Virus record (IMG/VR): IMGVR_UViG_3300027770_000032
Direction: 5' to 3' (one strand)
Length of the DNA: 64,000 nt
Source: a virus
The notes under the pieces are model-generated. The model ran no database searches. It saw nothing but the letters and a program-made list of their open reading frames with translations, and was not told where the DNA came from. Positions 30,321 to 61,433 of the stretch are shown in pieces (positions within the stretch are counted from its first letter, which is position 1; every line of letters starts with the position of its first letter). Both the position numbers and the translations under genes were made by a program.

Positions 30321-31381
30321 AGATTGCTTTAATTACTGACACCCATTGGGGTGCTCGTGGAGATTCTGCGGCTTTCGCAGAATATTTTAATAGGTTTTAT
30401 TATGAACATTTCTTTCCGTACCTTTCTGCTAATGGTATTAGCCGCATTTTTCATTTGGGTGACATTGTTGATCGACGAAAGTATATCAACTTTGTTACAG
30501 CCAGACATTTACGGCGATTCGTCGAACACTGTGATACTTCCGGAATCAGACTAGACGTTATCATTGGTAATCATGATACTTCGTTTAAGAATACGAACGA
30601 AGTGAATTCTATGCGCGAATTGTTTGATCACTCGACGTATGACATTCACTATTACTCAGATCCTACAGAAGTAGATATCGACGGCTTGAGTGTTGCCGTA
30701 CTTCCTTGGATTTGTTCTGGTAACTATGACGAAAGCATGAAGTTTATCGATAACACTTCTGCGCAGGTTTTATTTGGGCATCTCGAACTCGCTGGCTTCG
30801 AGATGTATAAGGGTGCAGTAAATGATCATGGATTTAGCGCTAGCATGTTTGATAAGTTTGATGTCGTGTGTAGTGGGCATTTCCATCATAAATCCACGCG
30901 TGGTAATATCAATTATCTCGGCGCACCCTATGAAATGTCTTGGTCTGACTATGATGATCCAAGGGGCTTTCATATATTTGACACAGACACTCGTGAGCTA
31001 ACATTTATACAGAATCCTTATACGATGTTTCAGAAGTGGTTTTATGATGATGCCAAGTGGCCTAACTTCGAATCGATTCATGAGTTAGATTTCGATACTG
31101 TCAAAGGTAACTATGTGAAGGTAATTGTAAAGAACAAGAACAACCCGTTCTGGTTCGATACATATATTGACAAGCTCGAAAAGGCAGGTGCTCTTGACAT
31201 ACAGGTGGTCGAAGATAATCTCAATCTTCAATTGGAAGATGACCGTGACATTGTCAATGAAGCGGAAGATACACTCACAATCCTCACCAAAGTGATTGAC
31301 CAGTGGGAAACTCCAGTGGATAAAAAAAGATTGTACAATTTCTTAACAACGTTGTATGGTGAAGCTTTAAGTGTGGAGTAA
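30317..31381 (+). CDS. gp47: Recombination endonuclease subunit (Mre11/SbcD-like)
   Basis: DTHWG, HLGD..DRRK, GNHD, SGHFH, YLG. Confidence 0.95.
   Translation: MKIALITDTHWGARGDSAAFAEYFNRFYYEHFFPYLSANGISRIFHLGDIVDRRKYINFVTARHLRRFVEHCDTSGIRLDVIIGNHDTSFKNTNEVNSMRELFDHSTYDIHYYSDPTEVDIDGLSVAVLPWICSGNYDESMKFIDNTSAQVLFGHLELAGFEMYKGAVNDHGFSASMFDKFDVVCSGHFHHKSTRGNINYLGAPYEMSWSDYDDPRGFHIFDTDTRELTFIQNPYTMFQKWFYDDAKWPNFESIHELDFDTVKGNYVKVIVKNKNNPFWFDTYIDKLEKAGALDIQVVEDNLNLQLEDDRDIVNEAEDTLTILTKVIDQWETPVDKKRLYNFLTTLYGEALSVE
31332..31360 (+). promoter_or_regulatory. TGTACA-N17-TATGGT promoter upstream of gp46
   Basis: Member of the motif family; 24 nt before the ATG. Confidence 0.5.
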
Positions 31382-31383
31382 TC

Positions 31384-33236: not shown

Positions 33237-33793
33237 TCAAAGACATCTTAATGCATACGGATCCGATCTTGAAAGAAGAGATGCCGAAGTTTGATTTCGA
33301 TAATCCTATAGTCAATGCTGTAGAACTCTACAACGATCTTGCTGAGACGATGATCGATGCTGAAGGCATGGGACTTTCGGCCAATCAGATTGGTATACGT
33401 ACTCGTATGTTTGTGATGCGATCAGAGAATGTCATCGGTGTGATCAATCCGAAGATTGTCGACGTATCTTCTGAGACGGTCGTCCTTGAAGAAGGCTGCT
33501 TGTCATATCCGAATCTTTTCGTCAAGATCAAGCGCCCGAAGTTTATTAAGGTTCGCTTCACACATCCTGATGGCACGACTGAGACGAAGAAGTTTGACGG
33601 TATTACTGCTCGTGTATTCCAGCATGAGCTCGATCACTTAAATGGAATTCAGCATACCAAGCGAGCGAATACATATCATATGGAACAAGCAAAAAAGCTA
33701 GCGGCGAAAATAAACCGAAAAAACGGTGTACTTAAACCGAAAAATGAGTTATCTTTAGAAGTACAACAAATGATGGATTGGTTAAAAGCATGA
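33233..33793 (+). CDS. def: Peptide deformylase
   Basis: GMGLSANQIG, EGCLS, QHELDHLNG. Confidence 0.95.
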   Translation: MIKDILMHTDPILKEEMPKFDFDNPIVNAVELYNDLAETMIDAEGMGLSANQIGIRTRMFVMRSENVIGVINPKIVDVSSETVVLEEGCLSYPNLFVKIKRPKFIKVRFTHPDGTTETKKFDGITARVFQHELDHLNGIQHTKRANTYHMEQAKKLAAKINRKNGVLKPKNELSLEVQQMMDWLKA

Positions 33794-34197
33794 GTGAAGA
33801 TTGGGTAAGAGATATTTCTGGTATGCATCGGTATTACGGTGTCAATGAGAAGATTCAAGATTTTGATGCCGAGAAGCTGAAGCAGTTTCTTCGGTTTCGC
33901 ATGTCGTTCCTCGACGAAGAACTGACTGAAACAAAGAATGCGGTGAACGCCAATGACGCAGAAGAAATCGTCGATGGTCTAATCGACCTTTGCGTGGTGG
34001 CCATCGGTACATTGGATTCGATGGGTATTGATTCGTATGAGGCATGGAATCGTGTTCTACGCGCCAACCTTCAAAAACAAGTCGGAGTAAAGCCAGAACG
34101 ACCGAATCCTCTCGGTCTTCCAGATCTGATCAAACCTGCTGGTTGGAAGGCTCCATCCCATACTAATAATCATGGATTGCTAGCAAAGCTTAAGTAA
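33790..34197 (+). CDS. All-alpha NTP pyrophosphohydrolase (MazG/PRA-PH-like; candidate dCTPase/dUTPase)
   Basis: EELTE...EEIVDGLIDL, V.RAN..K, DLIKP.GW.AP. Confidence 0.8.
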   Translation: MSEDWVRDISGMHRYYGVNEKIQDFDAEKLKQFLRFRMSFLDEELTETKNAVNANDAEEIVDGLIDLCVVAIGTLDSMGIDSYEAWNRVLRANLQKQVGVKPERPNPLGLPDLIKPAGWKAPSHTNNHGLLAKLK

Positions 34198-34700
34198 TGT
34201 GGATTATTGACAATTTTTTACCTGACTCTTTGTATCAAGATCTTAAATCCTTAATATTAGGAGATAACATCGAATGGAACTATTGTCCAGGTGCTACATA
34301 TAAAGATCAGCACGATGAATTCTATTTTGTGCATAGTGTGATAGCCGAGAATTATACATCACCTCACTTTAAAGATATTAAACCGATACTTTATTTCATG
34401 GATGATAAACTCGGTTTTGTCATTAATAAAATTATAAGAATTAACTGTACGCTTACTACCAATCAAGGTGTACGTAAGCGTACGGCTATGCATATTGATT
34501 TTGACGAACCCCATTACACAGGCATATACTATATCAACGATAACAATGGGCCTACTGTGGTAGAAGATACCGAGGTTGAATGTGTAGCCAATCGATTCTT
34601 ACTATTTGAAGGATCTAAGATGCATAGTGGTACCTTACAAGACGACTGTCATGCCAGAGTTAACATTGTTTTCAATATGCAAGGTTTTTTTCGAAAATAA
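34197..34700 (+). CDS. 2OG-Fe(II) oxygenase
   Basis: IIDNFL, MHID, YYINDNNG.T, NR.LLF.G...H, R.NI.FN. Confidence 0.75.
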   Translation: MWIIDNFLPDSLYQDLKSLILGDNIEWNYCPGATYKDQHDEFYFVHSVIAENYTSPHFKDIKPILYFMDDKLGFVINKIIRINCTLTTNQGVRKRTAMHIDFDEPHYTGIYYINDNNGPTVVEDTEVECVANRFLLFEGSKMHSGTLQDDCHARVNIVFNMQGFFRK

Positions 34701-35368: not shown

Positions 35369-35905
35369 ATGACTGAACTATTAGAAAAACTCAAAACCAT
35401 CTTTGCAACAACCGAGCCTGGCTTGGTAATCGACAAAGAATTCCTCGAACTCCGTGAAACTATGAAGTCACGCCTCAATCAAGGCACTCGAAACGACTTC
35501 AAGTTTACCAAAGACGTCGACTGTCTGATGCTCGAAGAATGGCTCATCAAGAAAAACATCGTTCTTGGTCCGCTGCCTGAGCACTGTGAAAAAAGCGGAG
35601 CATGCGTTTATGACGTTCGCGTCGACGATGCTTACATCGATTTCAAATGCATCGATGAGAACCTATACTATAACGTTTCTGAACAAAAGATGAATACACA
35701 CCCATGGGTAGAAGCTGGCATTAAAGCTGGACGCTTGACTCATTATTGTTTTTATCGGATGTATCGGCCTGAAGATCGACCACTCCAAGAAAATGATGTA
35801 GTGACATTCGAATTAATCAATGTACTTAATTCGCAATATGTAGTAGATTCATTAATGCCTTCCAAATTCGATGGCAAATTTTATAAGGTGCCTAAATATG
35901 TCTAA
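35369..35905 (+). CDS. Putative PD-(D/E)xK nuclease, DenB (endonuclease IV)-like
   Basis: LEEWL...YDVRVDDAYIDFK resembles the E...D...(D/E)xK restriction-fold pattern; size is similar to T4 DenB. Confidence 0.45.
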   Translation: MTELLEKLKTIFATTEPGLVIDKEFLELRETMKSRLNQGTRNDFKFTKDVDCLMLEEWLIKKNIVLGPLPEHCEKSGACVYDVRVDDAYIDFKCIDENLYYNVSEQKMNTHPWVEAGIKAGRLTHYCFYRMYRPEDRPLQENDVVTFELINVLNSQYVVDSLMPSKFDGKFYKVPKYV

Positions 35906-36278
35906 AGAACGTGAATCAATTAAAGTCCTCCAAGAATGTGCTGAGATCCAGCTAAAGAAGTCGAAAGACTATCAGAACGAAGCATCACGCATTCGCCAAG
36001 CTGACTACTATCCTCGTGGTGTAGCTACCATCACCGATCTCATCTATGCCAAGACTCTGCGTATGCAATCTGTCATCGAAGCGATGGAAAAAGATCCTAC
36101 ATATACGCCTAACTTCGAATCCATTGTAGACTCTGCAATGGATCTGATTAACTATGCGTCGTTCGTCGTTGCTTATTCTCGTGGTAAGATGGACGGTCAA
36201 TCACCAGATCGTGACTTCCTCAATCGTCCTGTCAAGATAGTTGGCGCGGGCGTTGGAGGTAATCTTGCTGAAGGTTGA
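35898..36278 (+). CDS. Nucleotide-modification-associated protein (DUF1599-like)
   Basis: L.EC..IQ.KK..DY, K..R, D...DLINYA.F. Confidence 0.7.
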   Translation: MSKERESIKVLQECAEIQLKKSKDYQNEASRIRQADYYPRGVATITDLIYAKTLRMQSVIEAMEKDPTYTPNFESIVDSAMDLINYASFVVAYSRGKMDGQSPDRDFLNRPVKIVGAGVGGNLAEG

Positions 36279-36915
36279 AGATATTCGTAATCACTTCATT
36301 GATGAATTGATGGACAGTAACTTTGTCACTGATAAGACTGGTGTCAAAACCATCGAGATGATCGGTGCTACATTCGAAGCAGATGAACCAACCATTTTCG
36401 GTGATGTAAATGATGATTACATTCAACGTGAGCTTGAATGGTACGAGTCAATGTCATTGTATGTCGATGATATTCCTGGTGTTACTCCTGCTATCTGGCA
36501 GAAAGTTGCTGATCGTGGTGGCAAGATCAATTCCAATTATGGTTGGGCTATCTATCATAAAGATAACGGTTTGCAATATATGCGTGTCTTCAATCAATTA
36601 TTACATTTGCCAAATAGTCGTCGCGCAGTCATGATCTACACTCGACCTACTATGTGGGAAGATTACAAGCGTGATGGTATGAGCGACTTCATGTGTACTA
36701 ATACTGTACAGTATATGATTCGTAATGAGCAGCTTGTTGCAATCGTTCAGATGCGTTCGAATGATGTTGTCTTCGGTTATCGTAACGACTATGCATGGCA
36801 AAAGCATGTTGCTGATACTTTGACAGCAGACTTAGGATTAACAAAAGAACCAAAAATTATTTGGCATGTTGGTAGTCTTCATGTGTACGAAAGACATTTT
36901 GATAAGGTAAAGTAA
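36241..36915 (+). CDS. gp42: dCMP hydroxymethylase (thymidylate synthase fold); exact start uncertain
   Basis: KTIEMIGA.F.ADEP.IFG, INSNYGW, GMSDFMCTNTVQY, MRSNDVVFGYRNDYAWQ, GSLHVY closely match T4 gp42, including the dCMP-specifying Asp in RND. Confidence 0.88.
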   Translation: MARALEVILLKVEDIRNHFIDELMDSNFVTDKTGVKTIEMIGATFEADEPTIFGDVNDDYIQRELEWYESMSLYVDDIPGVTPAIWQKVADRGGKINSNYGWAIYHKDNGLQYMRVFNQLLHLPNSRRAVMIYTRPTMWEDYKRDGMSDFMCTNTVQYMIRNEQLVAIVQMRSNDVVFGYRNDYAWQKHVADTLTADLGLTKEPKIIWHVGSLHVYERHFDKVK

Positions 36916-37340
36916 TGAAAGACGTTTTATATTATTCAACTCAGAGTGGCCACGAGATCAGTGATGATGTCGTGGTCGTTGGTTTATGCCCTTCGAGTAA
37001 CGATGTCCGTTCGAGATCAGATACGTATTGGCGTCTCAAGAACTGGATGAACATCGTAGGTCAATATGCATACGACTTCTACAACGTGATTCCTGATATT
37101 GTCGACGCAGAGCCGAAGATGGCGAACGTCAATCTTGAGGATATAAATACTAAGCTAAGCAAGTTTAGAGATAAGAAGGTGATTGCTCTCGGCAACTTTC
37201 CTTCGAAGGTACTCGACAAGCTTGGCATAGATCACCTCAAGATCGGTCATCCTTCAATGCGTAATAGAAAGTGGAACGACTTTCATAACGTAACGATGAC
37301 TCTTGAAAATATGAAAGATTATCTGCGTGGAACTCACTGA
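36915..37340 (+). CDS. Uracil-DNA-glycosylase-fold protein
   Basis: VVVGLCPS, F.NV, KVIALG, HPS.RN motifs. Confidence 0.55.
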   Translation: MKDVLYYSTQSGHEISDDVVVVGLCPSSNDVRSRSDTYWRLKNWMNIVGQYAYDFYNVIPDIVDAEPKMANVNLEDINTKLSKFRDKKVIALGNFPSKVLDKLGIDHLKIGHPSMRNRKWNDFHNVTMTLENMKDYLRGTH

Positions 37341-38487
37341 ATATTATGACGAGTATATCCGATATTTCTATCTAGCAAAAGATCAGCAAGCCAAGTGTAA
37401 TCTTGGTTCTGTGCCATACCTCGAATCGAATATGAACGACGACCTCCTCGAGAACGTAGAGCTCTATGACGTCGTCGAACGTAAGTATGCGGGATTCTCA
37501 CAGATTGTCAATGACGTTTTCTATGGATGGACTCCGGAACATCCATACTGGGACAAGATGGAAAAAGGCCATCATACATACCAAAGGAAGACGATTGCCA
37601 CCGACTGGACTGGTAAGCACTCTGACTTTCAACTTGCCGAATGGTTGTATGTGTTCCTTCTCCATCGTGTGACTGGTTCTGGTATCAACTACTCTGTAAA
37701 ACCTTCGGGCTATTCGAACACCGTTCTTCCACATCTCTACAAGTTTAATACTATTGAAGAGATGACGCGATTCATCAACGTTTATCCATATCCATTCTAC
37801 ACGTCGGTAGGTTATCAGTTTCCTTCCTTTCCAAAGCCGAAACCTGGTTACAAGAGAGGTGGAGACTATTATCTTTCTGAGTATGCACCTCGTCTTTGCC
37901 GAGAAATGGCAGAGTGGCTCGAAGGCAATAACTCCAAGAAAGATCTTCGCGAAATCGGAGAATGGATGTTTGACTGGAATACTAAGAATGGACTTCGTGT
38001 TTATCGATTCCAATATGCTGCATTCGTAGCAGACATTGCCGATTGGTTTCCGCAGTATGTCAATCTTGAAAGCCCATTCTATTATGGTACGAATGCGGTA
38101 GAATGTATCTCATATCTTGCTAACAATACAGATAAGTTGCAAAAAGAAAAGTTCCTCGACAAGGTAATGGAAAAGATTTATGCAGATACAGGCGCGTTCC
38201 CTTACAATGCAGAAGATGTATGCTGCGACTTTATCCGATGGGTCGAGAACTATGTGAAACCGGGTGGAGCTTACAATCATCTCGATTTTGACTCACTGTG
38301 GTCGTCATGCAAAATTAAAGATCACCCGTATGGTCGACAAAAGGCAATGCTGGATCTAGGCCTCGTGAGAACTTTCAATGGTATGACAAACCATCCATCC
38401 GATGATACTGTTCTCAAGCAAGTTGGCATGAGTGTACAAGACTATAAGGCAAAAGTAAATGAACATGTTAACACAACTGCTCGGTGA
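37327..38487 (+). CDS. aGPT-Pplase-like (HhH-fold) DNA base hypermodification protein
   Basis: C-terminal YG.NA..CI...EDVCCDFIRW resembles the G.G...GL...E..LC..KY signature; neighbours gp42. Confidence 0.55.
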   Translation: MELTEYYDEYIRYFYLAKDQQAKCNLGSVPYLESNMNDDLLENVELYDVVERKYAGFSQIVNDVFYGWTPEHPYWDKMEKGHHTYQRKTIATDWTGKHSDFQLAEWLYVFLLHRVTGSGINYSVKPSGYSNTVLPHLYKFNTIEEMTRFINVYPYPFYTSVGYQFPSFPKPKPGYKRGGDYYLSEYAPRLCREMAEWLEGNNSKKDLREIGEWMFDWNTKNGLRVYRFQYAAFVADIADWFPQYVNLESPFYYGTNAVECISYLANNTDKLQKEKFLDKVMEKIYADTGAFPYNAEDVCCDFIRWVENYVKPGGAYNHLDFDSLWSSCKIKDHPYGRQKAMLDLGLVRTFNGMTNHPSDDTVLKQVGMSVQDYKAKVNEHVNTTAR

Positions 38488-39466
38488 GCATGAATTTGAT
38501 ATTGAATATCCGAATATTGCCGAAGTCGAGTATGACGACAAAGGAAAGCCGAAGCAATCATGGATGAAAGACTGGACTCAAGAGGAGAGGACTGAAAAGT
38601 TCTTTGAGTTTTGTCGTGAATATGATTTGCGTCGAGACTCTCTTCTTCGTGACAACTATCAACAGTTCAGTCATCGCATGCATTGGCATGAATGTCCTTT
38701 CGTTGATGAGATCAAGGAAGTCGAAGATTTTAAGACTGTACTCGAAGCATGCCTTATCTTCTCTTTTAGCAATGAACACTGGAAAACTTTTAAAGCATGG
38801 CAATCTGGAGGTCCGGAAGCTATGCGTACTCGTTTTATATCTGAACGTCATGCTCGCTCAGATCTTTTTCAAATCTATTATCCAAAAGATACGAGTGTAA
38901 AAGATTGGCTGTGTGAAGTTCCTACGGCATTTGCAGAGAAGCATGCTGAAAGCTTGTTTGAGAAACGCAATCGACCTTATACGATGATGGAGTTTGCTAA
39001 GAAGTTGAACACGATCTTCGTCGAGGAATTTGGTTTTCGTAATGCCATGTATCCTTGTAAGAACGCAGCTCGTCACGTGGCTATGAGTCATCCCGATTGG
39101 GTGGATCCTGATTCTTTCCTTCATGGCGGTACAGGTTATTTCGACGGACTCAGCCAAGTTTTTGATTGTCCGAATCTGATGAGTAAGAGTAAGTATGATA
39201 TTAACGAGTTCGGTGAGTATGTTGCTTTGAATGATGCGGCGAAGATGCAAGTCGAGCATATGGATTATCTGAAGGCACATCTATCAAATCCCATTCATAC
39301 GCATAACTATCTGAACCTCGAAGACAAGCTTTGTATGCATTATAAATATATGGCAGTCAAGCTTGGCGTGAAGTCGCAGACGATGCAAATCCCATATGAT
39401 TGGGTATATCCCATCGAATGGTCTCTCAAGACGAATAGATATGATAGGCTGACGAATGGCACATAA
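38459..39466 (+). CDS. Second aGPT-Pplase-like DNA modification protein
   Basis: GGTGYFDGL...LEDKLCMHYKY; paralogous C-terminus. Confidence 0.5.
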   Translation: MNMLTQLLGEHEFDIEYPNIAEVEYDDKGKPKQSWMKDWTQEERTEKFFEFCREYDLRRDSLLRDNYQQFSHRMHWHECPFVDEIKEVEDFKTVLEACLIFSFSNEHWKTFKAWQSGGPEAMRTRFISERHARSDLFQIYYPKDTSVKDWLCEVPTAFAEKHAESLFEKRNRPYTMMEFAKKLNTIFVEEFGFRNAMYPCKNAARHVAMSHPDWVDPDSFLHGGTGYFDGLSQVFDCPNLMSKSKYDINEFGEYVALNDAAKMQVEHMDYLKAHLSNPIHTHNYLNLEDKLCMHYKYMAVKLGVKSQTMQIPYDWVYPIEWSLKTNRYDRLTNGT

Positions 39467-40358
39467 TAAACATGTCACCGATGGCGTGAACAAAGACGTA
39501 GGCATTTACGGTTGGGAAAAAGCCAGAGAATATTATCTGAGTCTTGCCGAATCATGGACCGATCCTTATCCAGATCCAGTCGTCACAATTCATGACGGTG
39601 TACGATGTGTACGAGACGATCTCATCACTGGAACGAAAGTTCGTGGTGGTGATTGTCTTATTTCAAGAATGAATCAATCGACTATTGTATATGTTCAACC
39701 TCGCACTGGTCTTGCAGGTGTTTCTCTTCTTGATGTGGCCAAGCGTCATAATAAGAAAGTAAAGTTGTTCATGCCTTCTTCACAAACAATCTCTCATCAT
39801 CAGGCATGCTGTATTGAACAAGGAGCAGATGTCGAGTTTCATCGTATTGCTGCAATGCCAAATCTAAACAAGATCGCCAAAGATTGGGCAGATTCTCAAG
39901 AAGATGCCTTCTTCGTTCCTCTTGGTTTAAAGCATGAACTCGTCACCGCTGGTATTGTGAAGGCTGCATCAAAGATCGAAGCGCCTGATGAAGTCTATGT
40001 CGCCATCTCAACAGGTGTACTCTCACGTGCAATGCAGATCGCGTGGCCAAATGCCAAATTCCACTCAGTTGCAGTGTCTCGTAATCTGAAAGCTGGTGAA
40101 CTTGGCCGTGCTGATGTCATCTCTGAACCGATGCCATTTCAACAAAGCGAGAAGGCAGAGAATCTTCCACCGTTTCCATCGATTGATACTTATGATGGAA
40201 AAGTATGGAAATACATTCCAAAAAATACTGGTAGGAACATCTTATTTTGGAATGTCGGTAAACAACCAGTATTGAATGATCCTACAATCTATGATCGCGT
40301 AAATAGTTACCGCGATTGGCAAAAAAATGATGTACAATATAGGCAACTTGATATATAA
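39456..40358 (+). CDS. PLP-dependent enzyme, fold type II (TrpB/cysteine-synthase-like)
   Basis: VRDDL..GTK.R (PLP lysine), YVAISTGVL, YDGKVW, LFWNVG. Confidence 0.8.
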   Translation: MAHNKHVTDGVNKDVGIYGWEKAREYYLSLAESWTDPYPDPVVTIHDGVRCVRDDLITGTKVRGGDCLISRMNQSTIVYVQPRTGLAGVSLLDVAKRHNKKVKLFMPSSQTISHHQACCIEQGADVEFHRIAAMPNLNKIAKDWADSQEDAFFVPLGLKHELVTAGIVKAASKIEAPDEVYVAISTGVLSRAMQIAWPNAKFHSVAVSRNLKAGELGRADVISEPMPFQQSEKAENLPPFPSIDTYDGKVWKYIPKNTGRNILFWNVGKQPVLNDPTIYDRVNSYRDWQKNDVQYRQLDI

Positions 40359-40359
40359 G
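40331..40359 (+). promoter_or_regulatory. TGTACA-N17-TATAAG promoter
   Basis: Motif family. Confidence 0.45.
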
Positions 40360-40366
40360 GGATAAT

Positions 40367-41434
40367 ATGAACATATTACTCACATCCCCATTCACTCCTG
40401 TTTCTTCCAACATTCACTCGCATCGGGCCGCTCAGGCTGCCATCTATGCTGAACAGTTGAGTAGTTTAGGTAACGTCCATCTCGATCGTACTGGTAACAT
40501 TCATCAGGATACGGTATGGATAGATGCTACTGGTAACATTCATTCTGATCCGCCACAAGTTGATAGAGTCTATGTCTATCATGGCAATGATTGGTTTGGC
40601 TCACTAAACCTTTTCGGTGGCATGAAAAATTATAGTAATATCGATAAGTTGATTCTCTACTCGAATCTAAAGGCTCCTGTCTATTCTTTATGGATCGATC
40701 ATCCGAAGTACAGTGAGATGTTAAAGCCCCGACTCGATGGTGATATCCATCCTTTCTGGCATCTTGTTGATTGGGAAAATCTAAAGAAGATCGAAGACAC
40801 TGCCATTACAGTTCGTGAAATTGAAACTACGAATCGTGCAGTGGCCGGTGATAGCCATGCTATTTGCATGTATCGTCCAGGTTGGTTTGTCAATTCGGTT
40901 CCCTTCAAGACTCTCCACGGTGCACTCAAGGAAGGTCTACAAACTTTTATCGAGCCTCATCATGAGATCGCAGAGTTCTACTTCGGTAACATCGACGTAC
41001 GTCACCATCTTTGCCGTCAACCTGATCCTGAACAAGCAACACGAGATTTGGCGAATAGATACTATGAACAGCTCTCTCGACTAGATCTTGCAAAAGTTTC
41101 TGCATATGAGTTGCTTCCTATCGAGCATGAATCGCGAGTCCTTCCAAAGACTGGATACTATAAAGGAACTCCATTCTATGGTTCATGGGAAGATCGCAAT
41201 AGATGTCGTCTTATCTTTAAGGATGAGATGAGAAAGCTTTGTGCTCAAGGTAGTGTCAACCTCATTGAATGGGTTGATCCGCTTCTCAATGACAGAGGTG
41301 AGCTCGACTTTGAATGCATGGAAAAACCAAAGTCGGTCCATCTCTCGCGCAATTCATATCCGCATTGGCAAGGCCGCAAGTGGTCTGGCCTATCTGAAAA
41401 CAAACCCGCAACTCTAGAGGATTTCTTTGCATGA
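40367..41434 (+). CDS. Hypothetical protein of the DNA-modification cluster (SGNH/GDSL-like C-terminal half)
   Basis: AGDSHA, FGNIDVRHH, SVHL motifs. Ends in TLEDFF, a clamp-binding-like tail similar to the gp43 C-terminus TLEDWL. Confidence 0.5.
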   Translation: MNILLTSPFTPVSSNIHSHRAAQAAIYAEQLSSLGNVHLDRTGNIHQDTVWIDATGNIHSDPPQVDRVYVYHGNDWFGSLNLFGGMKNYSNIDKLILYSNLKAPVYSLWIDHPKYSEMLKPRLDGDIHPFWHLVDWENLKKIEDTAITVREIETTNRAVAGDSHAICMYRPGWFVNSVPFKTLHGALKEGLQTFIEPHHEIAEFYFGNIDVRHHLCRQPDPEQATRDLANRYYEQLSRLDLAKVSAYELLPIEHESRVLPKTGYYKGTPFYGSWEDRNRCRLIFKDEMRKLCAQGSVNLIEWVDPLLNDRGELDFECMEKPKSVHLSRNSYPHWQGRKWSGLSENKPATLEDFFA

Positions 41435-41892
41435 AAACTAGTAAGTATATAATGAACGAACATGATGATAATACCGTATCCATCACTAAGAAAGGTCCAA
41501 CAGGTGGACCACAGTTTGAAAGTATGGCAGGATTAAATGGTCCTCCAGGTATATACGTCGAGAATCCTTCGGGCACACACATAAATTTTATTCCAGGAAT
41601 TACGGCGAAGCATCTCAGTGTGTATAAATACAATGAAGGCGAATCACTCAAAGAAATTCAGTCTTACATCGATGCTACTTACGAGCAGCATTATTCCCGA
41701 AATAAATATCAAGCAACAGAATTCATCATTGACGCCGGTCATGGTACTGGTTTTAATATCGGGAATATGATGAAGTACACTCAACGATACGGTCGTAAGG
41801 GTGATCCCGCCGAATGGCGAAAGGACCTGATGAAGGTTATCCACTACGCAATTATGCAACTCCACGTTCATGATACTGAAAATAAAGATTAA
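41431..41892 (+). CDS. DUF3310 / T7 gp1.7-like nucleotide-kinase domain protein
   Basis: HY, F..GN..KY..RYG.KG, DL.K..HY. Confidence 0.7.
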   Translation: MKTSKYIMNEHDDNTVSITKKGPTGGPQFESMAGLNGPPGIYVENPSGTHINFIPGITAKHLSVYKYNEGESLKEIQSYIDATYEQHYSRNKYQATEFIIDAGHGTGFNIGNMMKYTQRYGRKGDPAEWRKDLMKVIHYAIMQLHVHDTENKD

Positions 41893-41901
41893 GGATTAAT
41901 T

Positions 41902-42876
41902 ATGGGTATTGAAATTAATGTTCCAATGGAAGAGCTCAGAAAGCGCAAGCTCTTTATTGCCGCGCCAATGTATGGCGGCCAATGCGCTGGTATGTTTACA
42001 CGATCAATCGCAGATCTCTCTGCACTTTGTACGCACTACGGAATTCAAGTCAGATTTTACTTCTTGTTTAACGAGTCATTGATCACTCGAGCGCGTAACT
42101 ACTGCGCAGACGAATTCATGCGTTCAGGTGATACTCACTTGATGTTCATCGACTCTGATATTGGATTCAATCCAAATGACGTGATCGCACTGCTTGCTCT
42201 ACAAAATCCAGATCCATCAGTAGATAACTATGATATCATCGCTGGTCCATATCCGAAGAAGTGCATCAGTTGGGAAAAGATTAAGCTTGCTGTCGATAAG
42301 GGTATGGCTGACGAGAATCCAAACGATCTCGAAAAGTTTGTTGGTGATTACGTCTTTAATCCAACTGGTGAAACACGAGAGATTGCTCTTGGACAACCAG
42401 TCGAAGTGCTTGAATCTGGAACTGGATTCATGATGATTCGGCGCCAAACTTTCGAGAAGTTTCAAGAAGCTTATCCTCAGCAGTTCTACAAACCTGATCA
42501 CGTTCGTACAGAACACTTCGACGGTAGCCGTGAAATCATGGCTTACTTCGATACGCCGATCGATCATAAGCGTACGAACATTAATGCCGAGCTTGAAGAA
42601 TACTTGAAAAAGAATCCAAAAGCAAAAGCAAAAGAGATTGTAGACTTTGTGAAAGATCCGAACAATGGTGTAATCAAAGAATATTCGAAACGTTACCTCT
42701 CCGAAGACTATATGTTCTGTCAGTGGGTTCGTAATGCTGGAATGCATGTATGGCTTTGCCCATGGATGGAACTGAAGCACGTTGGTTCGTATGTATTCGG
42801 TGGTTCTCTGCCAGATATTGCCCGTATCGGTGCAGCTGCAACTGCAGATCCTTCTGCACTCGGTAAAAACAAATAA
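41902..42876 (+). CDS. Glycosyltransferase-like protein (GT-A fold)
   Basis: NESLITRARN, THLMFIDSDIGF, GTGFMMIRR, YLSEDY.FC, L.H.G. Confidence 0.7.
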   Translation: MGIEINVPMEELRKRKLFIAAPMYGGQCAGMFTRSIADLSALCTHYGIQVRFYFLFNESLITRARNYCADEFMRSGDTHLMFIDSDIGFNPNDVIALLALQNPDPSVDNYDIIAGPYPKKCISWEKIKLAVDKGMADENPNDLEKFVGDYVFNPTGETREIALGQPVEVLESGTGFMMIRRQTFEKFQEAYPQQFYKPDHVRTEHFDGSREIMAYFDTPIDHKRTNINAELEEYLKKNPKAKAKEIVDFVKDPNNGVIKEYSKRYLSEDYMFCQWVRNAGMHVWLCPWMELKHVGSYVFGGSLPDIARIGAAATADPSALGKNK

Positions 42877-42879: not shown

Positions 42880-42908
42880 TGTACAATTAATACAATCGTT
42901 GGTATATT
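42880..42908 (+). promoter_or_regulatory. TGTACA-N17-TATATT promoter upstream of gp45
   Basis: Motif family. Confidence 0.65.
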
Positions 42909-42936
42909 GAATATTCCGAACATATGGAGATTTATT

Positions 42937-43596
42937 ATGAAATTAGATAATGATACGTTGCAAGTACTCAAGAACTTCTCGGCTATTAACAAGAACATTA
43001 TGTTCAAGCCTGGAAATGTGATTCGTACTATTTCGAGTACAAAATCTGTTCTTGCAAAAGCAACAATTAAACAAGAATTTGACAAAGGTTTTGCCGTATA
43101 TGACCTCTCACGGTTTATTGGCACTCTTTCCTTGTTTAATGATCCTGAGATTGAAATCAAGGATTCGTACGTCGAACTCATCGAAGGTAACAACAAGTTT
43201 CAGTACGCTGTCACTGATCCTTCGCTGATCATCGTTCCTCCTGATCGTGAGATTGAATTGCCAAATCCAGAAGTCAATTGCTTGATTTCTGAAGAAGCGC
43301 TTAATCGAGTGATGAAGGCGTTGGCAGTTTCTCAGTTGCCTGAGATTGCCATCGTCGGTAAGAACGGTAAGATCTTGCTTCAGGCTGTCGATACTCGTGG
43401 CACTAGCAACGACTCGTTTAGCATCGAAGTTGGTGAAACTGAAGCTCGCTTTCGCATGGTATTCCGTTCGGATTGCATGAAGTTGATTCCAGGTTCTTAT
43501 GACGTTTCGATCTCTTCCAAGGGCCTTAGCCATTGGAAGGGCGCAACAGTAGAATACTGGATCGCTGTTGAATCCAACTCGGCGTTCGAGGCTTGA
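42937..43596 (+). CDS. gp45: Sliding clamp
   Basis: T..VLKNFS.IN, F.VYDL..F, G.Y.V.IS, YWIA.E. Confidence 0.93.
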   Translation: MKLDNDTLQVLKNFSAINKNIMFKPGNVIRTISSTKSVLAKATIKQEFDKGFAVYDLSRFIGTLSLFNDPEIEIKDSYVELIEGNNKFQYAVTDPSLIIVPPDREIELPNPEVNCLISEEALNRVMKALAVSQLPEIAIVGKNGKILLQAVDTRGTSNDSFSIEVGETEARFRMVFRSDCMKLIPGSYDVSISSKGLSHWKGATVEYWIAVESNSAFEA

Positions 43597-43603
43597 TTAT
43601 TAT

Positions 43604-43632
43604 GGGTGGTGTTTCGGCATCACCCGCTTTTT
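43604..43632 (+). terminator. Terminator/hairpin between gp45 and gp44
   Basis: GGGTGGTG-TTTCGG-CATCACCC followed by Ts. Confidence 0.65.
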
Positions 43633-43648
43633 GTGACGGAGATATATT

Positions 43649-44584
43649 ATGCTTGAAGATTTTTTGTGGGTAGAGAAGTATCGCCCAAAGACCGTGTCCG
43701 ACACTATCCTGACTGACGAACTGAAGAAAACATTTCAACAGTTCGTAGATCAGAAAAACATTCCTAACCTCATTCTCTCTGGTACCGCAGGTGTTGGCAA
43801 GACGACTGTGGCAAAAGCCATGTGCGAAGAACTACAATGTGACTATATCGTTATCAACGGTTCGATGAATGGCAACATCGATATGCTACGTAACGACATC
43901 TCACAGTTTGCTAGCTCTGTGTCGCTCATGGGTGGCAGAAAGATGGTGATCCTCGACGAAGCCGACTATCTCAATCCTCAGTCGACTCAACCAGCTCTTC
44001 GTAACTTTATGGAAGAGTTCAGTGCCAATTGTGGATTTATTCTCACTTGTAACTTTGTTGATCGTATCATCGAGCCTCTTCATTCTCGTTGTTCTGTGAT
44101 CAAGTTCAAGATTCCAAAGTCAGAACTGCCAGCTCTTGCAAAACAATTTATGCAACGAGTGTGCGGCATTCTTGACATTGAAGGTGTAGAATACGAGAAG
44201 CCAGTTGTGGCTGAAGTGATCAAGTCTCACTTTCCTGATTGGCGCCGAGTGATCAATGAGTTGCAGCGTTACAGTGCGACTGGTAAGATCGATACCGGTA
44301 TCCTACGTAACTTCTCTGACAATGCACTCGCCAAACTCATTGGTTACATGAAGGATAAGAACTTCACAGCCGTTCGTAAGTGGCTTGGAGAGTCTGACAT
44401 TGAACCGACCGAGTTCTTCCGTGCCTTCTTCGATAAGGCCGAGGATTATATCGGCAAAGGTAGTATGCCTCAACTCGTACTCCATCTCGCAAAGTATCAG
44501 TATCAGAATGCATTCGCTGCTGATCCTGAGATCAATCTCATGGCATGTCTCACAGAAATTATGGCCGACTGCGAATTCTTGTGA
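43649..44584 (+). CDS. gp44: Clamp loader large subunit
   Basis: LWVEKYRP, G.AGVGKTT, ILDEADY, PLHSRC. Confidence 0.96.
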   Translation: MLEDFLWVEKYRPKTVSDTILTDELKKTFQQFVDQKNIPNLILSGTAGVGKTTVAKAMCEELQCDYIVINGSMNGNIDMLRNDISQFASSVSLMGGRKMVILDEADYLNPQSTQPALRNFMEEFSANCGFILTCNFVDRIIEPLHSRCSVIKFKIPKSELPALAKQFMQRVCGILDIEGVEYEKPVVAEVIKSHFPDWRRVINELQRYSATGKIDTGILRNFSDNALAKLIGYMKDKNFTAVRKWLGESDIEPTEFFRAFFDKAEDYIGKGSMPQLVLHLAKYQYQNAFAADPEINLMACLTEIMADCEFL

Positions 44585-44829
44585 TCTGGTTCAATCGAAA
44601 TAAAACATGCGCCGTGTGTGAAGATAAGTATCTGAAGAGCGTGCCATTTCATGAAATACAAATGAATACTGATGAAGGCATGGTCTCTCTTGAAATATGT
44701 GATAAGTGCGCAGACTTCTTTGATAAGTCTGCAGACGTGATAATGAAAGGCCGATCAAATGACACCCTTCGACTTCGTGAAATCGATCAACTCGACCAAG
44801 AAGAACCTGATGAAAGGTACGGAGAATGA
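44581..44829 (+). CDS. Small CxxC...CxxC zinc-finger-like protein
   Basis: GTG overlaps the gp44 stop; CAVC...ICDKC. Confidence 0.45.
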   Translation: MIWFNRNKTCAVCEDKYLKSVPFHEIQMNTDEGMVSLEICDKCADFFDKSADVIMKGRSNDTLRLREIDQLDQEEPDERYGE

Positions 44830-45145
44830 TGCTCTCGCCGAGAAGACATACAGTCCTTGGCTAACAAATAGATCCTTATCTTACTTTGCCGATTCCATTC
44901 ATGCCGCCAACATGATGAACTGCAACCACAACCTCGATAACAAACTCCAATATTCTTTTTTGATAAATATCATACGACCTAGCAAACGCTTTGCGAAGTG
45001 GGTGAAAAAAGAAAAGGATGGAGATCTCGAAGCGGTTGCAGAGTACTACAATTATAACCGCCGTGCTGCCAAGGCAGCTCTTGATATCCTCTCCTCTGAA
45101 CATATAAAAATAATAAAGAAAAAGATTCAGAAGGGTGAAACATGA
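44759..45145 (+). CDS. gp62: Clamp loader small subunit
   Basis: F...SIN..K, NRSLSYF.D, MN, R..KRF.KW.K. Confidence 0.92.
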   Translation: MTPFDFVKSINSTKKNLMKGTENDALAEKTYSPWLTNRSLSYFADSIHAANMMNCNHNLDNKLQYSFLINIIRPSKRFAKWVKKEKDGDLEAVAEYYNYNRRAAKAALDILSSEHIKIIKKKIQKGET

Positions 45146-45537
45146 ATATTTTAGAAACTTTAGTTGAAGTGAGGCTTGGAGAAGAAGACGATTTCTTGAA
45201 AGTTCGCGAGACTTTGACTCGTATCGGCGTAGCTTCTCGTAAGGACAAGACTCTTTATCAGTCTTGCCATATCTTACACAAACAAGGCAAATATTATATC
45301 GTCCACTTCAAAGAGTTGTTTGCACTCGATGGTAAACCATCAGACTTTTCAGAAGAAGACAAAGGTCGCAGAAATACAATTACCAAGCTTCTCTCCGATT
45401 GGGGATTGATCGCGATTGTTGATCCAGATAATATCATTGATCCTCAGACTCCTTTGAACCAAATTAAGATCCTTCCATTCAAAGAAAAAAATGAATGGAG
45501 TCTCGTGACGAAATATAATATCGGTCGCAAAAAATAA
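45142..45537 (+). CDS. regA: Translational repressor
   Basis: DDFLKVRETLTRIGVAS, LYQSCHILHKQG.YYIVHFKELFALDG, KY.IG. Confidence 0.97.
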   Translation: MNILETLVEVRLGEEDDFLKVRETLTRIGVASRKDKTLYQSCHILHKQGKYYIVHFKELFALDGKPSDFSEEDKGRRNTITKLLSDWGLIAIVDPDNIIDPQTPLNQIKILPFKEKNEWSLVTKYNIGRKK

Positions 45538-61404: not shown

Positions 61405-61433
61405 TAATAATGCGGCCAGATACTGGAGATCCA

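What the first reader, a model, noticed from the sequence alone, without database searches (positions are those of the whole stretch)
35369..42876. hmC hypermodification cluster built from enzymes known from thymidine hypermodification
Seen: a gp42 with the dCMP-type RND motif is followed not by recognisable T4 alpha/beta-glucosyltransferases but by a UDG-fold protein, two aGPT-Pplase-like paralogues, a fold-II PLP enzyme, an SGNH-like protein, DUF3310 and a GT-A enzyme, and is preceded by DUF1599. Established: aGPT-Pplase/amino acid:DNA transferases and PLP enzymes hypermodify 5-hmdU in phages such as phiW-14, ViI and M6, whereas T4 glucosylates hmC. Inference: this phage may attach an amino-acid- or amine-derived group to 5-hydroxymethylcytosine, with PLP-dependent tailoring and possible acylation or glycosylation, i.e. 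a possibly uncharacterised base. No obvious P-loop hm-base kinase is visible in the window.
Basis: partly seen in the sequence, partly recalled or inferred. Interest (0 to 1): 0.8.

Follow-up and report, generated by a model that had tools for sequence, protein, structure and literature searches.

The report
Kinase-less hydroxymethylcytosine DNA hypermodification cassette
An uncultured T4-like phage makes T4's hydroxymethylcytosine but, where T4 has sugar-adding enzymes, it carries a conserved enzyme set related to the one that attaches amino acids to thymine in other phages, so its DNA probably bears a cytosine decoration that nobody has described chemically.

Summary
Window 35871-41892 is one tightly overlapping + strand gene string in the replication-gene region of an uncultured T4-like myovirus. 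It starts with a true T4-type dCMP hydroxymethylase: 63% identical to T4 gp42, Cys148 and Asp179 kept, only 27% to the RB69 5-hydroxy-dCMP synthase. Next come a small UDG-like protein and two distant paralogues, ORF386 and ORF335. ORF335 has a helix-hairpin-helix glycosylase fold, and its best solved match is the PaMx11 amino acid:DNA transferase; ORF386's fold is not settled. Both keep an invariant E-D-x-x-C motif. Then follow a PLP enzyme of the same PHROG family as the M6 DNA decarboxylase gp52, an SGNH-motif protein (ORF355) and DUF3310. ORF355 has a T4 beta-glucosyltransferase-like N-terminus and a polymerase-like clamp-binding tail.

The core is syntenic in phages whose sliding clamp is only 40-46% identical. 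ORF355 and ORF386 are fused into one protein in other phages. No 5-hmdU-type DNA kinase is present in the window or in five related near-complete genomes. The GT-A-like gene is backbone, not part of the cassette.

Most likely this is a post-replicative, kinase-independent, amino-acid-derived hypermodification of hmC. The chemistry is untested. No paper in the library describes it. The scan has already noted the same cassette on other genomes.

The parts
33778..34197 (+). MazG-like (PRA-PH family) nucleotide pyrophosphatase. Candidate dCTPase that keeps unmodified dCTP out of phage DNA, the functional analogue of T4 gp56. It is syntenic with the cassette in all long related loci.
   Evidence: PF01503 E 5e-10; phrog_671 E 4e-21; present in 21/21 long loci.
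35369..35905 (+). ORF178, unknown function. Accessory: present only in close relatives.
   Evidence: No Pfam or PHROG match; found in L013, L016 and L018 only.
35871..36278 (+). Nmad1/DUF1599-like protein (nucleotide-modification-associated domain 1). It is fused to a MazG-like domain in some phages (phrog_18404).
   Evidence: PF07659 E 2e-4, below cut-off; phrog_1485 E 8e-13; phrog_18404 E 1.4e-12; conserved in 21/21 loci at 54-98% identity.
36241..36915 (+). gp42, T4-type dCMP hydroxymethylase. Makes 5-hydroxymethyl-dCMP.
   Evidence: E 2.4e-87 to PDB 1B49, Cys148 and Asp179 motifs identical; 63% identity to T4 gp42 against 27% to RB69 gp48.
36915..37340 (+). Small UDG-superfamily-like protein (141 aa), start overlapping the gp42 stop. 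Accessory: present in about two thirds of related loci.
   Evidence: PF03167 E 1.8e-3, below cut-off; 25 of 30 Atlas neighbours lie in clusters where 18-33% of members carry UDG; distribution.
37327..38487 (+). ORF386, HhH-type, ADDT-like paralogue A. Family-wide conserved HRxTGSG, D236, G254-x-N256 and E296-D-x-x-C300-D301. Fused behind an ORF355-like domain in other phages.
   Evidence: 953 metagenome homologues, no Pfam. Weak fold signal to AGOG, DUF2419 and PUGT, Z 4.2-5.4, from a poor model. Profile link to ORF335: probability 93%, E 3e-7. Fusions.
38459..39466 (+). ORF335, HhH-GPD fold, ADDT-like paralogue B. Invariant GGTG hairpin and N286-x-E288-D-K-x-C292.
   Evidence: Model pLDDT 89; Foldseek top hit 8z2n_B, probability 0.89; VIA top hit 8z2m_A, Z 9.1, 220 aligned; invariant columns.
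39456..40358 (+). Fold-type II PLP enzyme of the M6 gp52 family. Candidate decarboxylase acting on the appended amino acid. Carries a TGTKVRGG lysine motif.
   Evidence: phrog_7093 E 6e-39 over residues 46-269; M6 gp52 hits the same PHROG at 2e-159; shared C-terminal PFP..YD.K.WK..FWN.G motif, E 4e-5.
40367..41434 (+). ORF355. N-terminal T4 beta-glucosyltransferase-like domain (about residues 29-111), then an SGNH-motif domain (GDSH 161-164, G185, GNID 207-210, SVH 323-325), then a C-terminal ATLEDFF clamp-binding-like tail.
   Evidence: Conserved blocks; hhalign to T4 beta-GT probability 57%, E 1e-4; sub-threshold PF09198 hits in the homologues of 4/5 related genomes; tail conserved and shared only with gp43; fusions with the ORF386 family.
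41431..41892 (+). DUF3310 protein. Accessory: absent from one sublineage. The domain is often fused to nucleotide kinases in phages.
   Evidence: PF11753, 30.2 bits, above cut-off; phrog_480 E 5e-27 and kinase-fusion PHROGs; distribution.
41902..42876 (+). GT-A-like protein (DSD motif). Probably NOT part of the cassette: a backbone gene that sits beside gp45.
   Evidence: phrog_1574 E 3e-62. It is 60% identical to a gene in phage DLP6 that lies between peptide deformylase and gp45, with no gp42, ORF386, ORF335 or PLP present.

Best explanation
The cassette is a two-stage pathway that replaces cytosine in phage DNA by an amino-acid-derived derivative of 5-hydroxymethylcytosine, without the DNA kinase used in the thymidine pathways.

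Stage 1, before replication (shown by homology): gp42 converts dCMP to 5-hm-dCMP. The MazG-like and Nmad1 proteins probably deplete dCTP, and hmC is incorporated by gp43.

Stage 2, on DNA (inferred):
1. ORF355 rides the gp45 clamp through its polymerase-like C-terminal tail. It binds hmC with a beta-glucosyltransferase-like N-domain. It uses its SGNH-type Ser/His site either to esterify the hydroxymethyl oxygen, which makes a leaving group in place of phosphate, or to load or trim an acyl or aminoacyl group.
2. The HhH-fold paralogues ORF386 and ORF335 work like amino acid:DNA transferases. The Cys of the E-D-x-x-C motif attacks C6, the C5 substituent leaves to give an exocyclic methylene, and an amino acid's amine or hydroxyl adds to it. 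The pair may be a heterodimer or may perform two successive transfers.
3. The PLP enzyme then decarboxylates or otherwise tailors the appended amino acid, as M6 gp52 and ViI gp226 do.

The product is therefore expected to be an aminoalkyl- or aminoalkoxy-methylcytosine. The UDG-like and DUF3310 proteins are accessory. The GT-A-like gene is not part of the pathway.
For: gp42 identity and specificity residues.

ORF335 fold: PUGT is the best of 48,161 chains (Z 9.1, 220 of 287 residues), followed by a run of HhH-GPD glycosylases, and Foldseek also ranks PUGT first.

The catalytic motif: PUGT's catalytic E243-x3-C247 lies near its C-terminus (PMC11472151). ORF335 (E288, C292) and the ORF386 family (E296, C300) each keep an invariant E-D-x-x-C at the equivalent relative position, and the two motifs align with each other. 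The aligned ranges of the structural match (46-326 against 8-291, 220 residues) are only compatible with C292 lying near C247.

The PLP enzyme shares a PHROG family with the experimentally characterised M6 gp52 (PMC8989533).

Gene fusion: ORF355-like and ORF386-like domains are fused in 7 protein clusters, with all motifs invariant.

Gene neighbourhood: in IMG/VR the fused gene sits between an Asp-type thymidylate-synthase homologue and a PLP gene. The unfused order is kept in 21/21 long loci, although gp45 is only 40-46% identical.

The clamp tail is conserved across ORF355 homologues and is shared only with gp43.

PF18748 kinase and T4 alpha-GT are absent from five related genomes that are 70-99% complete.

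From established chemistry (my knowledge, not a tool result): C5-cytosine methyltransferases can exchange the hydroxyl of hmC for thiols through the same Cys-C6 adduct without prior phosphorylation, so a kinase-free route is chemically plausible.
Against: No chemistry or DNA composition data exist.

Neither paralogue matches Pfam ADDT or HMUDK_hel, even at E<=10. Profile comparisons with an M6-type ADDT alignment are at noise level and pick a different, Cys-less stretch.

The ORF386 model is poor (pLDDT 57.6) and its fold matches are within the noise range (Z at most 5.4). The residue-level equivalence of the E/C motif with PUGT was not shown.

The SGNH assignment rests on motifs and a weak Atlas lead (score 0.90). 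An A5 profile finds nothing in the PDB. The beta-GT similarity is only 57% probability.

ORF355-like genes also occur alone in 25 loci, so ORF355 may have a self-sufficient activity.

HhH-GPD proteins are usually glycosylases.

The window is not a whole genome, so an unrelated kinase elsewhere cannot be excluded for this particular phage.
Confidence: 0.6

Rival explanations
1. The phage DNA carries hmC, either plain or with a simple O-linked group added by ORF355 alone (an acyl or glycosyl group on the hydroxymethyl). The two HhH-fold proteins and the UDG-like protein are DNA glycosylases or repair enzymes. They would police the modified genome (for example removing hmU formed by hmC deamination) or attack unmodified host DNA. 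The PLP enzyme would serve nucleotide or amino-acid metabolism.
For: The HhH-GPD fold is primarily a glycosylase fold, and about 20 of the 22 best structural matches of ORF335 are glycosylases. A UDG-like gene is coupled to gp42. ORF355-like genes occur alone in 25 loci, and the N-terminus resembles T4 beta-GT. There is no sequence membership in ADDT.
Against: The single best fold match is the transferase PUGT, about 2 Z units above the best glycosylase. An invariant E-x3-C motif typical of ADDT, not of glycosylases, is present in both families. The PLP enzyme belongs to the DNA-decarboxylase PHROG family of M6 gp52. In the compact fused variant the fused gene and the PLP gene are immediate neighbours.
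Confidence: 0.17
2. The same enzymes act before replication on free nucleotides (hm-dCMP or hm-dCTP) rather than on DNA, so a fully hypermodified dNTP is polymerised. This parallels the activity of the 5hmC carbamoyltransferase on 5hmdCTP and the nucleotide-level action of the DUF2419 queuine-salvage enzymes.
For: DUF2419, an HhH-fold enzyme that works on a nucleotide, is among the best fold matches (Z 6.7-6.8). The cassette is flanked by nucleotide-metabolism genes (MazG, Nmad1, gp42). DUF3310 is often fused to nucleotide kinases. The MetaGPA carbamoyltransferase works on 5hmdCTP (PMC8670742).
Against: ORF355 carries a conserved clamp-binding-type tail that it shares with the polymerase. All characterised ADDT and PLP homologues act on polymeric DNA (PMC8989533, PMC11472151). 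The T4 beta-GT-like N-domain is a DNA-binding, base-flipping domain.
Confidence: 0.13
3. The pathway works on a uracil or thymine derivative (hmU arising from hmC deamination, or made by another enzyme), so it is an ordinary thymidine hypermodification pathway that merely lies next to gp42.
For: All characterised ADDT and PLP pathways start from 5-hmdU (PMC8989533). A UDG-like gene lies in the cassette.
Against: gp42 has Asp179 and is 63% identical to T4 gp42. The thymidylate-synthase homologues next to the fused variant also have Asp at this position, whereas the M6 dUMP enzyme has Asn. No 5-hmdU DNA kinase (PF18748) is present in five related genomes. No dCMP or dCTP deaminase was seen in the cassette.
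Confidence: 0.05

Closest known systems
Thymidine hypermodification pathways of phages M6, ViI, PaMx11, PhiW-14 and SP10. These combine a dUMP hydroxymethylase, the 5-hmdU DNA kinase, an amino acid:DNA transferase (ADDT, clade 2 aGPT-Pplase) and a PLP decarboxylase, rSAM or FAD enzyme (PMC5889632, PMC8989533, PMC11472151).
   Same: A thymidylate-synthase homologue makes a 5-hydroxymethyl pyrimidine. ORF335 shows the ADDT helix-hairpin-helix fold (for ORF386 the fold evidence is weak), and both paralogues carry an E-x3-C motif. The PLP enzyme is of the same PHROG family as M6 gp52. The aGPT-Pplase-type genes come as a paralogous pair. Partners are sometimes fused.
   Different: The base is cytosine (Asp179 gp42). 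There is no P-loop 5-HMUDK kinase in the window or in related genomes. An SGNH-motif, beta-GT-like, clamp-tailed protein takes the partner or fusion position that the kinase has in the T pathways. The two HhH proteins fail the Pfam ADDT and HMUDK_hel models. The host is a T4-like myovirus.
T4 hmC glucosylation (gp42, gp56, gp1, alpha-GT and beta-GT).
   Same: gp42 is an orthologue. hmC is made before replication and decorated afterwards. The cassette lies in the replication-gene region. The ORF355 N-terminus weakly resembles the T4 beta-GT N-domain.
   Different: There is no recognisable alpha-GT and no full beta-GT (only sub-threshold N-terminal hits). HhH Cys enzymes and a PLP enzyme are present instead.
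5-hydroxymethylcytosine carbamoyltransferase clusters found by MetaGPA (PMC8670742).
   Same: An Asp-type thymidylate-synthase homologue plus a PRA-PH/MazG pyrophosphatase lie next to an enzyme that derivatises the hmC hydroxyl. They are known only from metagenomes.
   Different: That system uses a single TobZ-type carbamoyltransferase. Here there is no carbamoyltransferase but a four-enzyme set.
RB69/DLP3 arabinosyl-5-hydroxycytosine pathway (PMC13326640).
   Same: A T4-like phage in which the gene 42 locus is followed by non-T4 tailoring genes, and the thymidylate-synthase homologue has Asp at the N177 position.
   Different: RB69 gp48 is a flavin-dependent 5-hydroxy-dCMP synthase that is only 27% identical to the window gp42. 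Its tailoring is by arabinosyltransferases and sugar-nucleotide enzymes, none of which are present here.
Phage C5-methyltransferase/TET clusters with a P-loop kinase (Burke et al. 2021, PMC8256090).
   Same: These are a predicted post-replicative elaboration of 5hmC in DNA beyond glycosylation.
   Different: There hmC is made on DNA by a methyltransferase plus TET, and a PhiW-14-type P-loop kinase is present. Here hmC is made before replication and there is no kinase.

Membership tests
T4 gp42 dCMP hydroxymethylase (thymidylate synthase superfamily) | Full-length similarity to T4 gp42, with the catalytic Cys148 | tested here: met
   E 2.4e-87 against 1B49 over residues 10-221; FMCTNT identical; 63% identity by tblastn.
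T4 gp42 dCMP hydroxymethylase (thymidylate synthase superfamily) | Asp at the position of E. coli ThyA Asn177 (T4 Asp179), which selects dCMP | tested here: met
   RNDYAWQ is identical to T4; the M6 dUMP enzyme has Asn in the same column.
T4 gp42 dCMP hydroxymethylase (thymidylate synthase superfamily) | Is not the RB69-type flavin-dependent 5-hydroxy-dCMP synthase | tested here: met
   27% identity, E 1e-10, to RB69 gp48, against 63% to T4 gp42 (PMC13326640).
T4 gp42 dCMP hydroxymethylase (thymidylate synthase superfamily) | Product is 5-hm-dCMP | not testable with these tools
   Needs an enzyme assay.
Amino acid:DNA transferase (Pfam PF18724 ADDT, clade 2 aGPT-Pplase) | Match to the family HMM above the curated cut-off | tested here: not met
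   No match for ORF386 or ORF335 even at E<=10. There is no match in five related genomes. Only 1 of 61 ORF386-family members reaches E 1e-3. M6 gp51 scores 1.4e-46 as a positive control.
Amino acid:DNA transferase (Pfam PF18724 ADDT, clade 2 aGPT-Pplase) | PUGT-type two-bundle HhH fold | tested here: met
   ORF335: 8z2m_A is the top match of 48,161 chains (Z 9.1, rmsd 4.1, 220 of 287 residues), and Foldseek also ranks it first with probability 0.89. ORF386 is inconclusive on its own (Z 4.2 to PUGT from a model of pLDDT 57.6) but is homologous to ORF335.
Amino acid:DNA transferase (Pfam PF18724 ADDT, clade 2 aGPT-Pplase) | Essential Cys with a neighbouring Glu (PaMx11 E243/C247; shown essential in M6 gp51 and ViI gp247) | tested here: inconclusive
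   An E-D-x-x-C motif is invariant in both families and the two align with each other. The spacing and relative position match E243-x3-C247. No residue-level structural alignment could be obtained, and hhalign against the ADDT profile did not align these motifs.
Amino acid:DNA transferase (Pfam PF18724 ADDT, clade 2 aGPT-Pplase) | Works downstream of a co-encoded 5-hmdU DNA kinase (PF18748) | tested here: not met
   No Walker-A kinase in the window. PF18748 is absent at E<=1 from five related genomes that are 70-99% complete.
HMUDK_hel (PF18723, former clade 1 aGPT-Pplase) | Match to the family HMM | tested here: not met
   No match for the window ORFs or in related genomes. The only hit is in the C-terminal half of Aeromonas phage 31 ORF233c, at E 0.0036, below cut-off.
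DNA-acting PLP decarboxylase family of M6 gp52 / ViI gp226 (phrog_7093; fold-type II PLP) | Family HMM match and a PLP-lysine motif | tested here: met
   phrog_7093 E 6.3e-39 over nearly the full length. M6 gp52 hits the same PHROG at 2.2e-159. The TGTKVRGG motif is seen in the sequence. Pfam PALP reaches only 21 bits against a cut-off of 35. Decarboxylase activity is not testable here.
SGNH/GDSL hydrolase-acyltransferase superfamily (ORF355 C-terminal half) | Blocks I (GDS), II (G), III (GxND) and V (DxxH) in order within about 190 residues | tested here: inconclusive
   GDSH 161-164, G185, GNID 207-210 and SVH 323-325 are invariant in 15-64 homologues and in the fusions. Blocks III and V are non-canonical. 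There is no Pfam match and no PDB match for the A5 profile. The Atlas lead to Lipase_GDSL scores only 0.90.
T4 beta-glucosyltransferase (PF09198, GT63) | Family HMM match or similarity to T4 beta-GT | tested here: inconclusive
   Sub-threshold hits (E 9e-5 to 9e-3, 12-19 bits against a cut-off of 27) fall in the ORF355 homologues of 4/5 related genomes. hhalign of A5 against T4 beta-GT gives probability 57%, E 1.1e-4, matching residues 29-111 to 28-100. BLASTP gives E 0.011. Only the N-terminal third is covered.
T4-type sliding-clamp (gp45) interaction peptide | Extreme C-terminal [ST]L[ED]x[FWL][FLI] peptide like that of gp43 | tested here: met
   ORF355 ends in ATLEDFFA. The tail is conserved across homologues whose preceding linker varies. 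The only other window ORF with it is the B-family polymerase, which ends KRATLEDWLN. Binding itself is not testable here.
UDG superfamily (ORF 36915-37340) | Family HMM match | tested here: inconclusive
   PF03167 E 1.8e-3, 18.8 bits against a cut-off of 24.3. The Atlas neighbours carry UDG in 18-33% of members.
GT-A glycosyltransferase (ORF 41902-42876) | GT-A family HMM match or DXD motif | tested here: inconclusive
   A DSD motif is seen in the sequence. The only hits are Anp1 at E 0.073 and Glyco_transf_21 at E 0.16. There is no PDB sequence match.

The most novel reading that the evidence does not exclude
Many uncultured aquatic T4-like phages replace cytosine by a still undescribed amino-acid-derived base, for example a 5-(aminoalkoxy)methyl- or 5-(aminoalkylamino)methyl-cytosine. 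It is made on DNA at the replication fork by a kinase-independent route. A clamp-tethered, beta-GT-like/SGNH enzyme activates or acylates the hmC hydroxyl. Two Cys-dependent HhH transferases, which form a new branch of the aGPT-Pplase/ADDT superfamily, then substitute it. A PLP enzyme finishes the group.
Probability: 0.45. Interest if true: 0.85.

Novelty: new variant of a known kind. Interest (0 to 1): 0.78.

Why it matters
All amino-acid or polyamine hypermodifications characterised so far are on thymine and start with a DNA kinase. On cytosine, only sugars, a carbamoyl group and, recently, carboxymethyl-derived groups are known.

This cassette would add a new base and a new activation chemistry to phage DNA modification. 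It is not rare. There are more than 950 protein clusters for ORF386, and 416 IMG/VR stretches encode ORF335 relatives, some of them marine (Tara) sequences.

Such a base would affect restriction, CRISPR and glycosylase defences. It would also affect how well these phages are recovered by sequencing. The enzymes could become tools for hmC-specific DNA labelling.

The E/C motif, the Ser/His motif and the clamp tail give direct mutational tests.

Tried and rejected
1. Megablast of the region and tblastn of ORF386 and ORF335 against 50,697 phage records found nothing. No cultured phage carries the pair.
2. BLASTP of ORF386 against ORF335 showed nothing. Shallow-profile hhalign was marginal at E 0.083. 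Only the deeper A3 profile showed the relationship.
3. Profiles of ORF386 and ORF335 against PDB sequences found nothing relevant.
4. Foldseek with the ORF386 model found nothing, because the model is poor.
5. hhalign or hmmsearch of A2 and A3 against M6 gp51, gp55 and a 27-sequence ADDT alignment gave noise only. I rejected the weak 'RPxxxxE' alignment of the ADDT Cys helix to ORF335 170-187. It would place the Cys helix before the GGTG hairpin, and it cannot be reconciled with 220 structurally aligned residues.
6. I tested whether the Aeromonas phage 31 ORF233c C-terminal half belongs to the ORF386 family. It does not by HMM. It only has weak HMUDK_hel/phrog_2396 hits.
7. I considered the RB69-type 5-hydroxycytosine route and rejected it.
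8. I considered the GT-A gene as the glycosylating step and rejected it as a cassette member.
9. PDB sequence searches for ORF355, the GT-A-like ORF and the PLP ORF found nothing.
Related IMG/VR genomes were used instead.
11. A scan for close relatives of the fused protein P0283 in IMG/VR found none. The alignment A6 did.
12. Literature searches for amino-acid- or amine-type hmC derivatives found no report.

Full report
**Setting.** The window is part of an uncultured T4-like myovirus. The major capsid protein (25299-26657) is about 60% identical to those of Stenotrophomonas phage DLP6, Pelagibacter phage Mosig, Methylophilales phage Melnitz and the cyanomyoviruses. The finding lies in the replication-gene region, between the gp47/gp46 homologues (30317-33099) and gp45, gp44, gp62 and regA (42907-45537), with gp43 at 61410-63941. 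No near-identical phage record exists. No whole genome is held for the window.

**Observation.** From 35871 to 41892 the + strand genes overlap or abut: Nmad1/DUF1599, gp42, a UDG-like ORF, ORF386, ORF335, a PLP enzyme, ORF355 and DUF3310.
- gp42 is unambiguous. It matches T4 dCMP hydroxymethylase at E 2.4e-87, and the catalytic Cys148 context (FMCTNT) and the Asp179 context (RNDYAWQ) are identical.
- A 2026 paper shows that the 'gene 42' homologues of RB69 and DLP3, which also have Asp at this position, make 5-hydroxy-dCMP with a flavin (PMC13326640). I therefore compared both. The window protein is 63% identical to T4 gp42 and only 27% to RB69 gp48. It is a T4-type hydroxymethylase.
- DUF3310 passes its Pfam cut-off. 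DUF1599, UDG and PALP are below cut-off but are backed by PHROG or Atlas results.

**The two 'aGPT-Pplase-like paralogues'.** Neither ORF386 nor ORF335 matches any Pfam family, even at E<=10. The current models ADDT (PF18724), HMUDK_hel (PF18723) and HMUDK (PF18748) score M6 gp51, gp55 and gp54 very strongly as controls.

Both ORFs belong to large, unannotated metagenomic families: 953 and 267 clusters, with no cultured phage among them.

The ORF335 model is confident (pLDDT 89).
- Foldseek ranks the PaMx11 5-PmdU glycinyltransferase gp46/PUGT first, at probability 0.89 against 0.15 or less for the rest.
- An exhaustive alignment against 48,161 representative chains also ranks PUGT first (Z 9.1, rmsd 4.1, 220 aligned of 287). 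DUF2419 and about twenty HhH-GPD DNA glycosylases follow at Z 7.2-4.3.

The ORF386 model is poor (pLDDT 57.6). Its matches are of the same kind (AGOG, DUF2419, PUGT, EndoIII, MUTYH), but their Z scores are within the noise range.

A profile search of 1.84 billion representatives with the ORF386 alignment gave 165 clusters. A 61-sequence alignment of them (A3) aligns with the ORF335 family at hhalign probability 93%, E 3e-7, over 138 columns. ORF335 alone also finds distant ORF386-family members by phmmer, down to E 5e-10. The two genes are therefore true, very distant paralogues.

**Catalytic motif.** PUGT uses Glu243, Thr244 and Cys247 (PMC11472151). The Cys and the neighbouring Glu are essential in M6 gp51 and ViI gp247 (PMC8989533). 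An ADDT alignment confirms E243-T-x-L-C247 as invariant.
- ORF335 has invariant N286, E288, D289, K290 and C292.
- The ORF386 family has nearly invariant E296, C300 and D301.
- The two motifs are aligned with each other by hhalign, and they are invariant in the fused proteins.

The spacing (E, then C four residues on) and the location in a late helix match ADDT. I could not obtain a residue-level superposition. Sequence profiles do not connect the families to ADDT, so this equivalence is an inference. The structural alignment ranges (46-326 against 8-291, 220 residues) are compatible with C292 lying near C247. They are not compatible with the alternative weak hhalign pairing.

**The PLP enzyme.** It matches phrog_7093 at E 6e-39 over nearly its whole length. 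M6 gp52 is the PLP decarboxylase shown to act on glycinylated thymidine in DNA, and it is a core member of that PHROG family (2e-159). The two proteins also share a C-terminal motif. A TGTKVRGG motif supplies the expected PLP lysine. Its only homologues in cultured phages lie beside ParB genes and are annotated as a DNA modification methylase.

**ORF355 is the new element.**
- Its family keeps GDSH(161-164), G185, GNID(207-210) and SVH(323-325) invariant. This is the order and spacing of SGNH blocks I, II, III and V. No HMM or PDB profile confirms the fold, and the Atlas gives only a weak GDSL lead.
- Its N-terminal third resembles the N-domain of T4 beta-glucosyltransferase. Sub-threshold PF09198 hits fall exactly in the ORF355 homologues of four of five related genomes. 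hhalign gives probability 57%, E 1e-4, for residues 29-111 against 28-100 of T4 beta-GT, ending at beta-GT Asp100. BLASTP gives E 0.011.
- Its last residues (ATLEDFFA) form a [ST]LE[DAS]F[FLI] tail that is conserved although the preceding linker is not. The only other window protein with such a tail is the gp43 polymerase, which ends KRATLEDWLN. This is the kind of peptide that tethers T4 proteins to the gp45 clamp, which argues for action on newly replicated DNA.
- In seven protein clusters an ORF355-like domain is fused to an ORF386-like domain, with E-values down to 1e-57 and 7e-54 for the two halves. That is the position the kinase takes in fused thymidine-pathway proteins (PMC8989533).
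- In Aeromonas phages 31, 44RR2.8t and 25 the ORF355-like domain is the N-terminus of a 795-aa protein. These phages have gene 42 but no glucosyltransferase (PMC2993671). The C-terminal part of that protein has only weak HMUDK_hel/phrog_2396 hits and is not an ORF386-family member.

**Conservation and variants.** In 21 of 21 long IMG/VR loci the order is MazG, Nmad1, gp42, (UDG), ORF386, ORF335, PLP, ORF355, (DUF3310), GT-A-like, gp45. ORF386, ORF335 and PLP are 62-73% identical where gp45 is only 40-46% identical.

A compact variant has an Asp-type thymidylate-synthase homologue (29% identical to gp42, FG[FL]CND), then the ORF355::ORF386 fusion, then a PLP gene, with no ORF335.

Twenty-five further loci have an ORF355-like gene alone.

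The GT-A-like gene is 60% identical to a DLP6 gene that lies between peptide deformylase and gp45 in a genome region lacking gp42, ORF386, ORF335 and PLP. It is a backbone gene, and the cassette looks like an insertion upstream of it.

**The missing kinase.** The window has no Walker-A protein other than gp46 and gp44. PF18748 finds nothing at E<=1 in five related genomes that are 70-99% complete. PF18724, PF18723 and T4 alpha-GT also find nothing there. The pathway is therefore not a copy of the thymidine pathways.

**Mechanism proposed.** hmC is made and incorporated as in T4; this part is shown by homology. The later steps are inferred.
1. ORF355, tethered to the clamp, recognises hmC. It either esterifies its hydroxyl to create a leaving group, or handles an acyl or aminoacyl group.
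2. The Cys of ORF386/ORF335 adds to C6. The C5 substituent leaves to give an exocyclic methylene, and an amino acid adds to it.
3. The PLP enzyme decarboxylates the amino acid.

The identity of the appended group is unknown. With a PLP enzyme but no radical-SAM isomerase, the ViI-type route (an O-linked serine decarboxylated to an aminoethoxy group) is the closest precedent.

**Novelty.** Searches of the paper library for amino-acid- or amine-type hmC derivatives, or for an hmC-directed ADDT, found nothing. The nearest published ideas are hmC carbamoylation (PMC8670742) and the suggestion that P-loop kinases next to phage TETs might phosphorylate 5hmC (PMC8256090).

This scan has already noted the same cassette on several other genomes, with the same reading. 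Those notes agree with the conclusions I reached here from my own tests, and they are not independent evidence.

**Limits.** All functional statements beyond gp42 rest on fold, motifs, fusion and synteny.

Noticed in passing
window 36241-36915 compared with L009, L013, L016 and L018: In the closest relatives gp42 is only 75-78% identical, while every neighbouring gene is 90-98% identical. In L024 it is 95%. This suggests that the gp42 allele alone has been exchanged by recombination within the cassette.
   Followed up: no
window 34197-34700: This 167-aa ORF matches phrog_274, labelled 'DNA endonuclease V' (E 6e-36), has no Pfam hit, and contains an HxD...H pattern that looks more like a 2OG-Fe(II) oxygenase. 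It lies between the MazG-like gene and the cassette and is present in few relatives (only L024 among the long loci).
   Followed up: no
L083:4408-5931 (Aeromonas phage 31 ORF234c): A phage-encoded sodium:solute symporter (PF00474, E 7e-53) lies directly upstream of the 795-aa ORF355-like fusion protein. It might import the co-substrate of that enzyme.
   Followed up: no
L097-L172 (25 IMG/VR loci, e.g. L097, L128, L140): ORF355-like genes of about 35% identity occur without ORF386, ORF335 or PLP within 6 kb upstream and 3 kb downstream. The family therefore also works outside this cassette. Their contexts were not examined.
   Followed up: partly
L086:6082-6792 (Microcystis phage Mae-JY30); Erythrobacter phages R6L and ZS04: The nearest cultured-phage homologues of the PLP enzyme (29-33% identity) are annotated 'DNA modification methylase'. 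In Mae-JY30 the gene follows two ParB/sulfiredoxin genes. This is probably a mis-annotated PLP enzyme in another DNA-modification module.
   Followed up: partly
window 33778-34197 and 35871-36278: The MazG-like ORF and the Nmad1 ORF match consecutive halves of one PHROG family (phrog_18404, positions 51-139 and 157-248). They are therefore fused into one protein in some phages.
   Followed up: no
window 41902-42876: The GT-A-like backbone gene has homologues in Sinorhizobium phages phiM7, phiM12 and phiN3, Rhizobium phage RHph_I1_18, Stenotrophomonas phage DLP6 and Synechococcus phage ACG-2014f. One Manatee Spring virome record calls it 'dpG-synthase-like'. Its substrate is unknown.
   Followed up: partly
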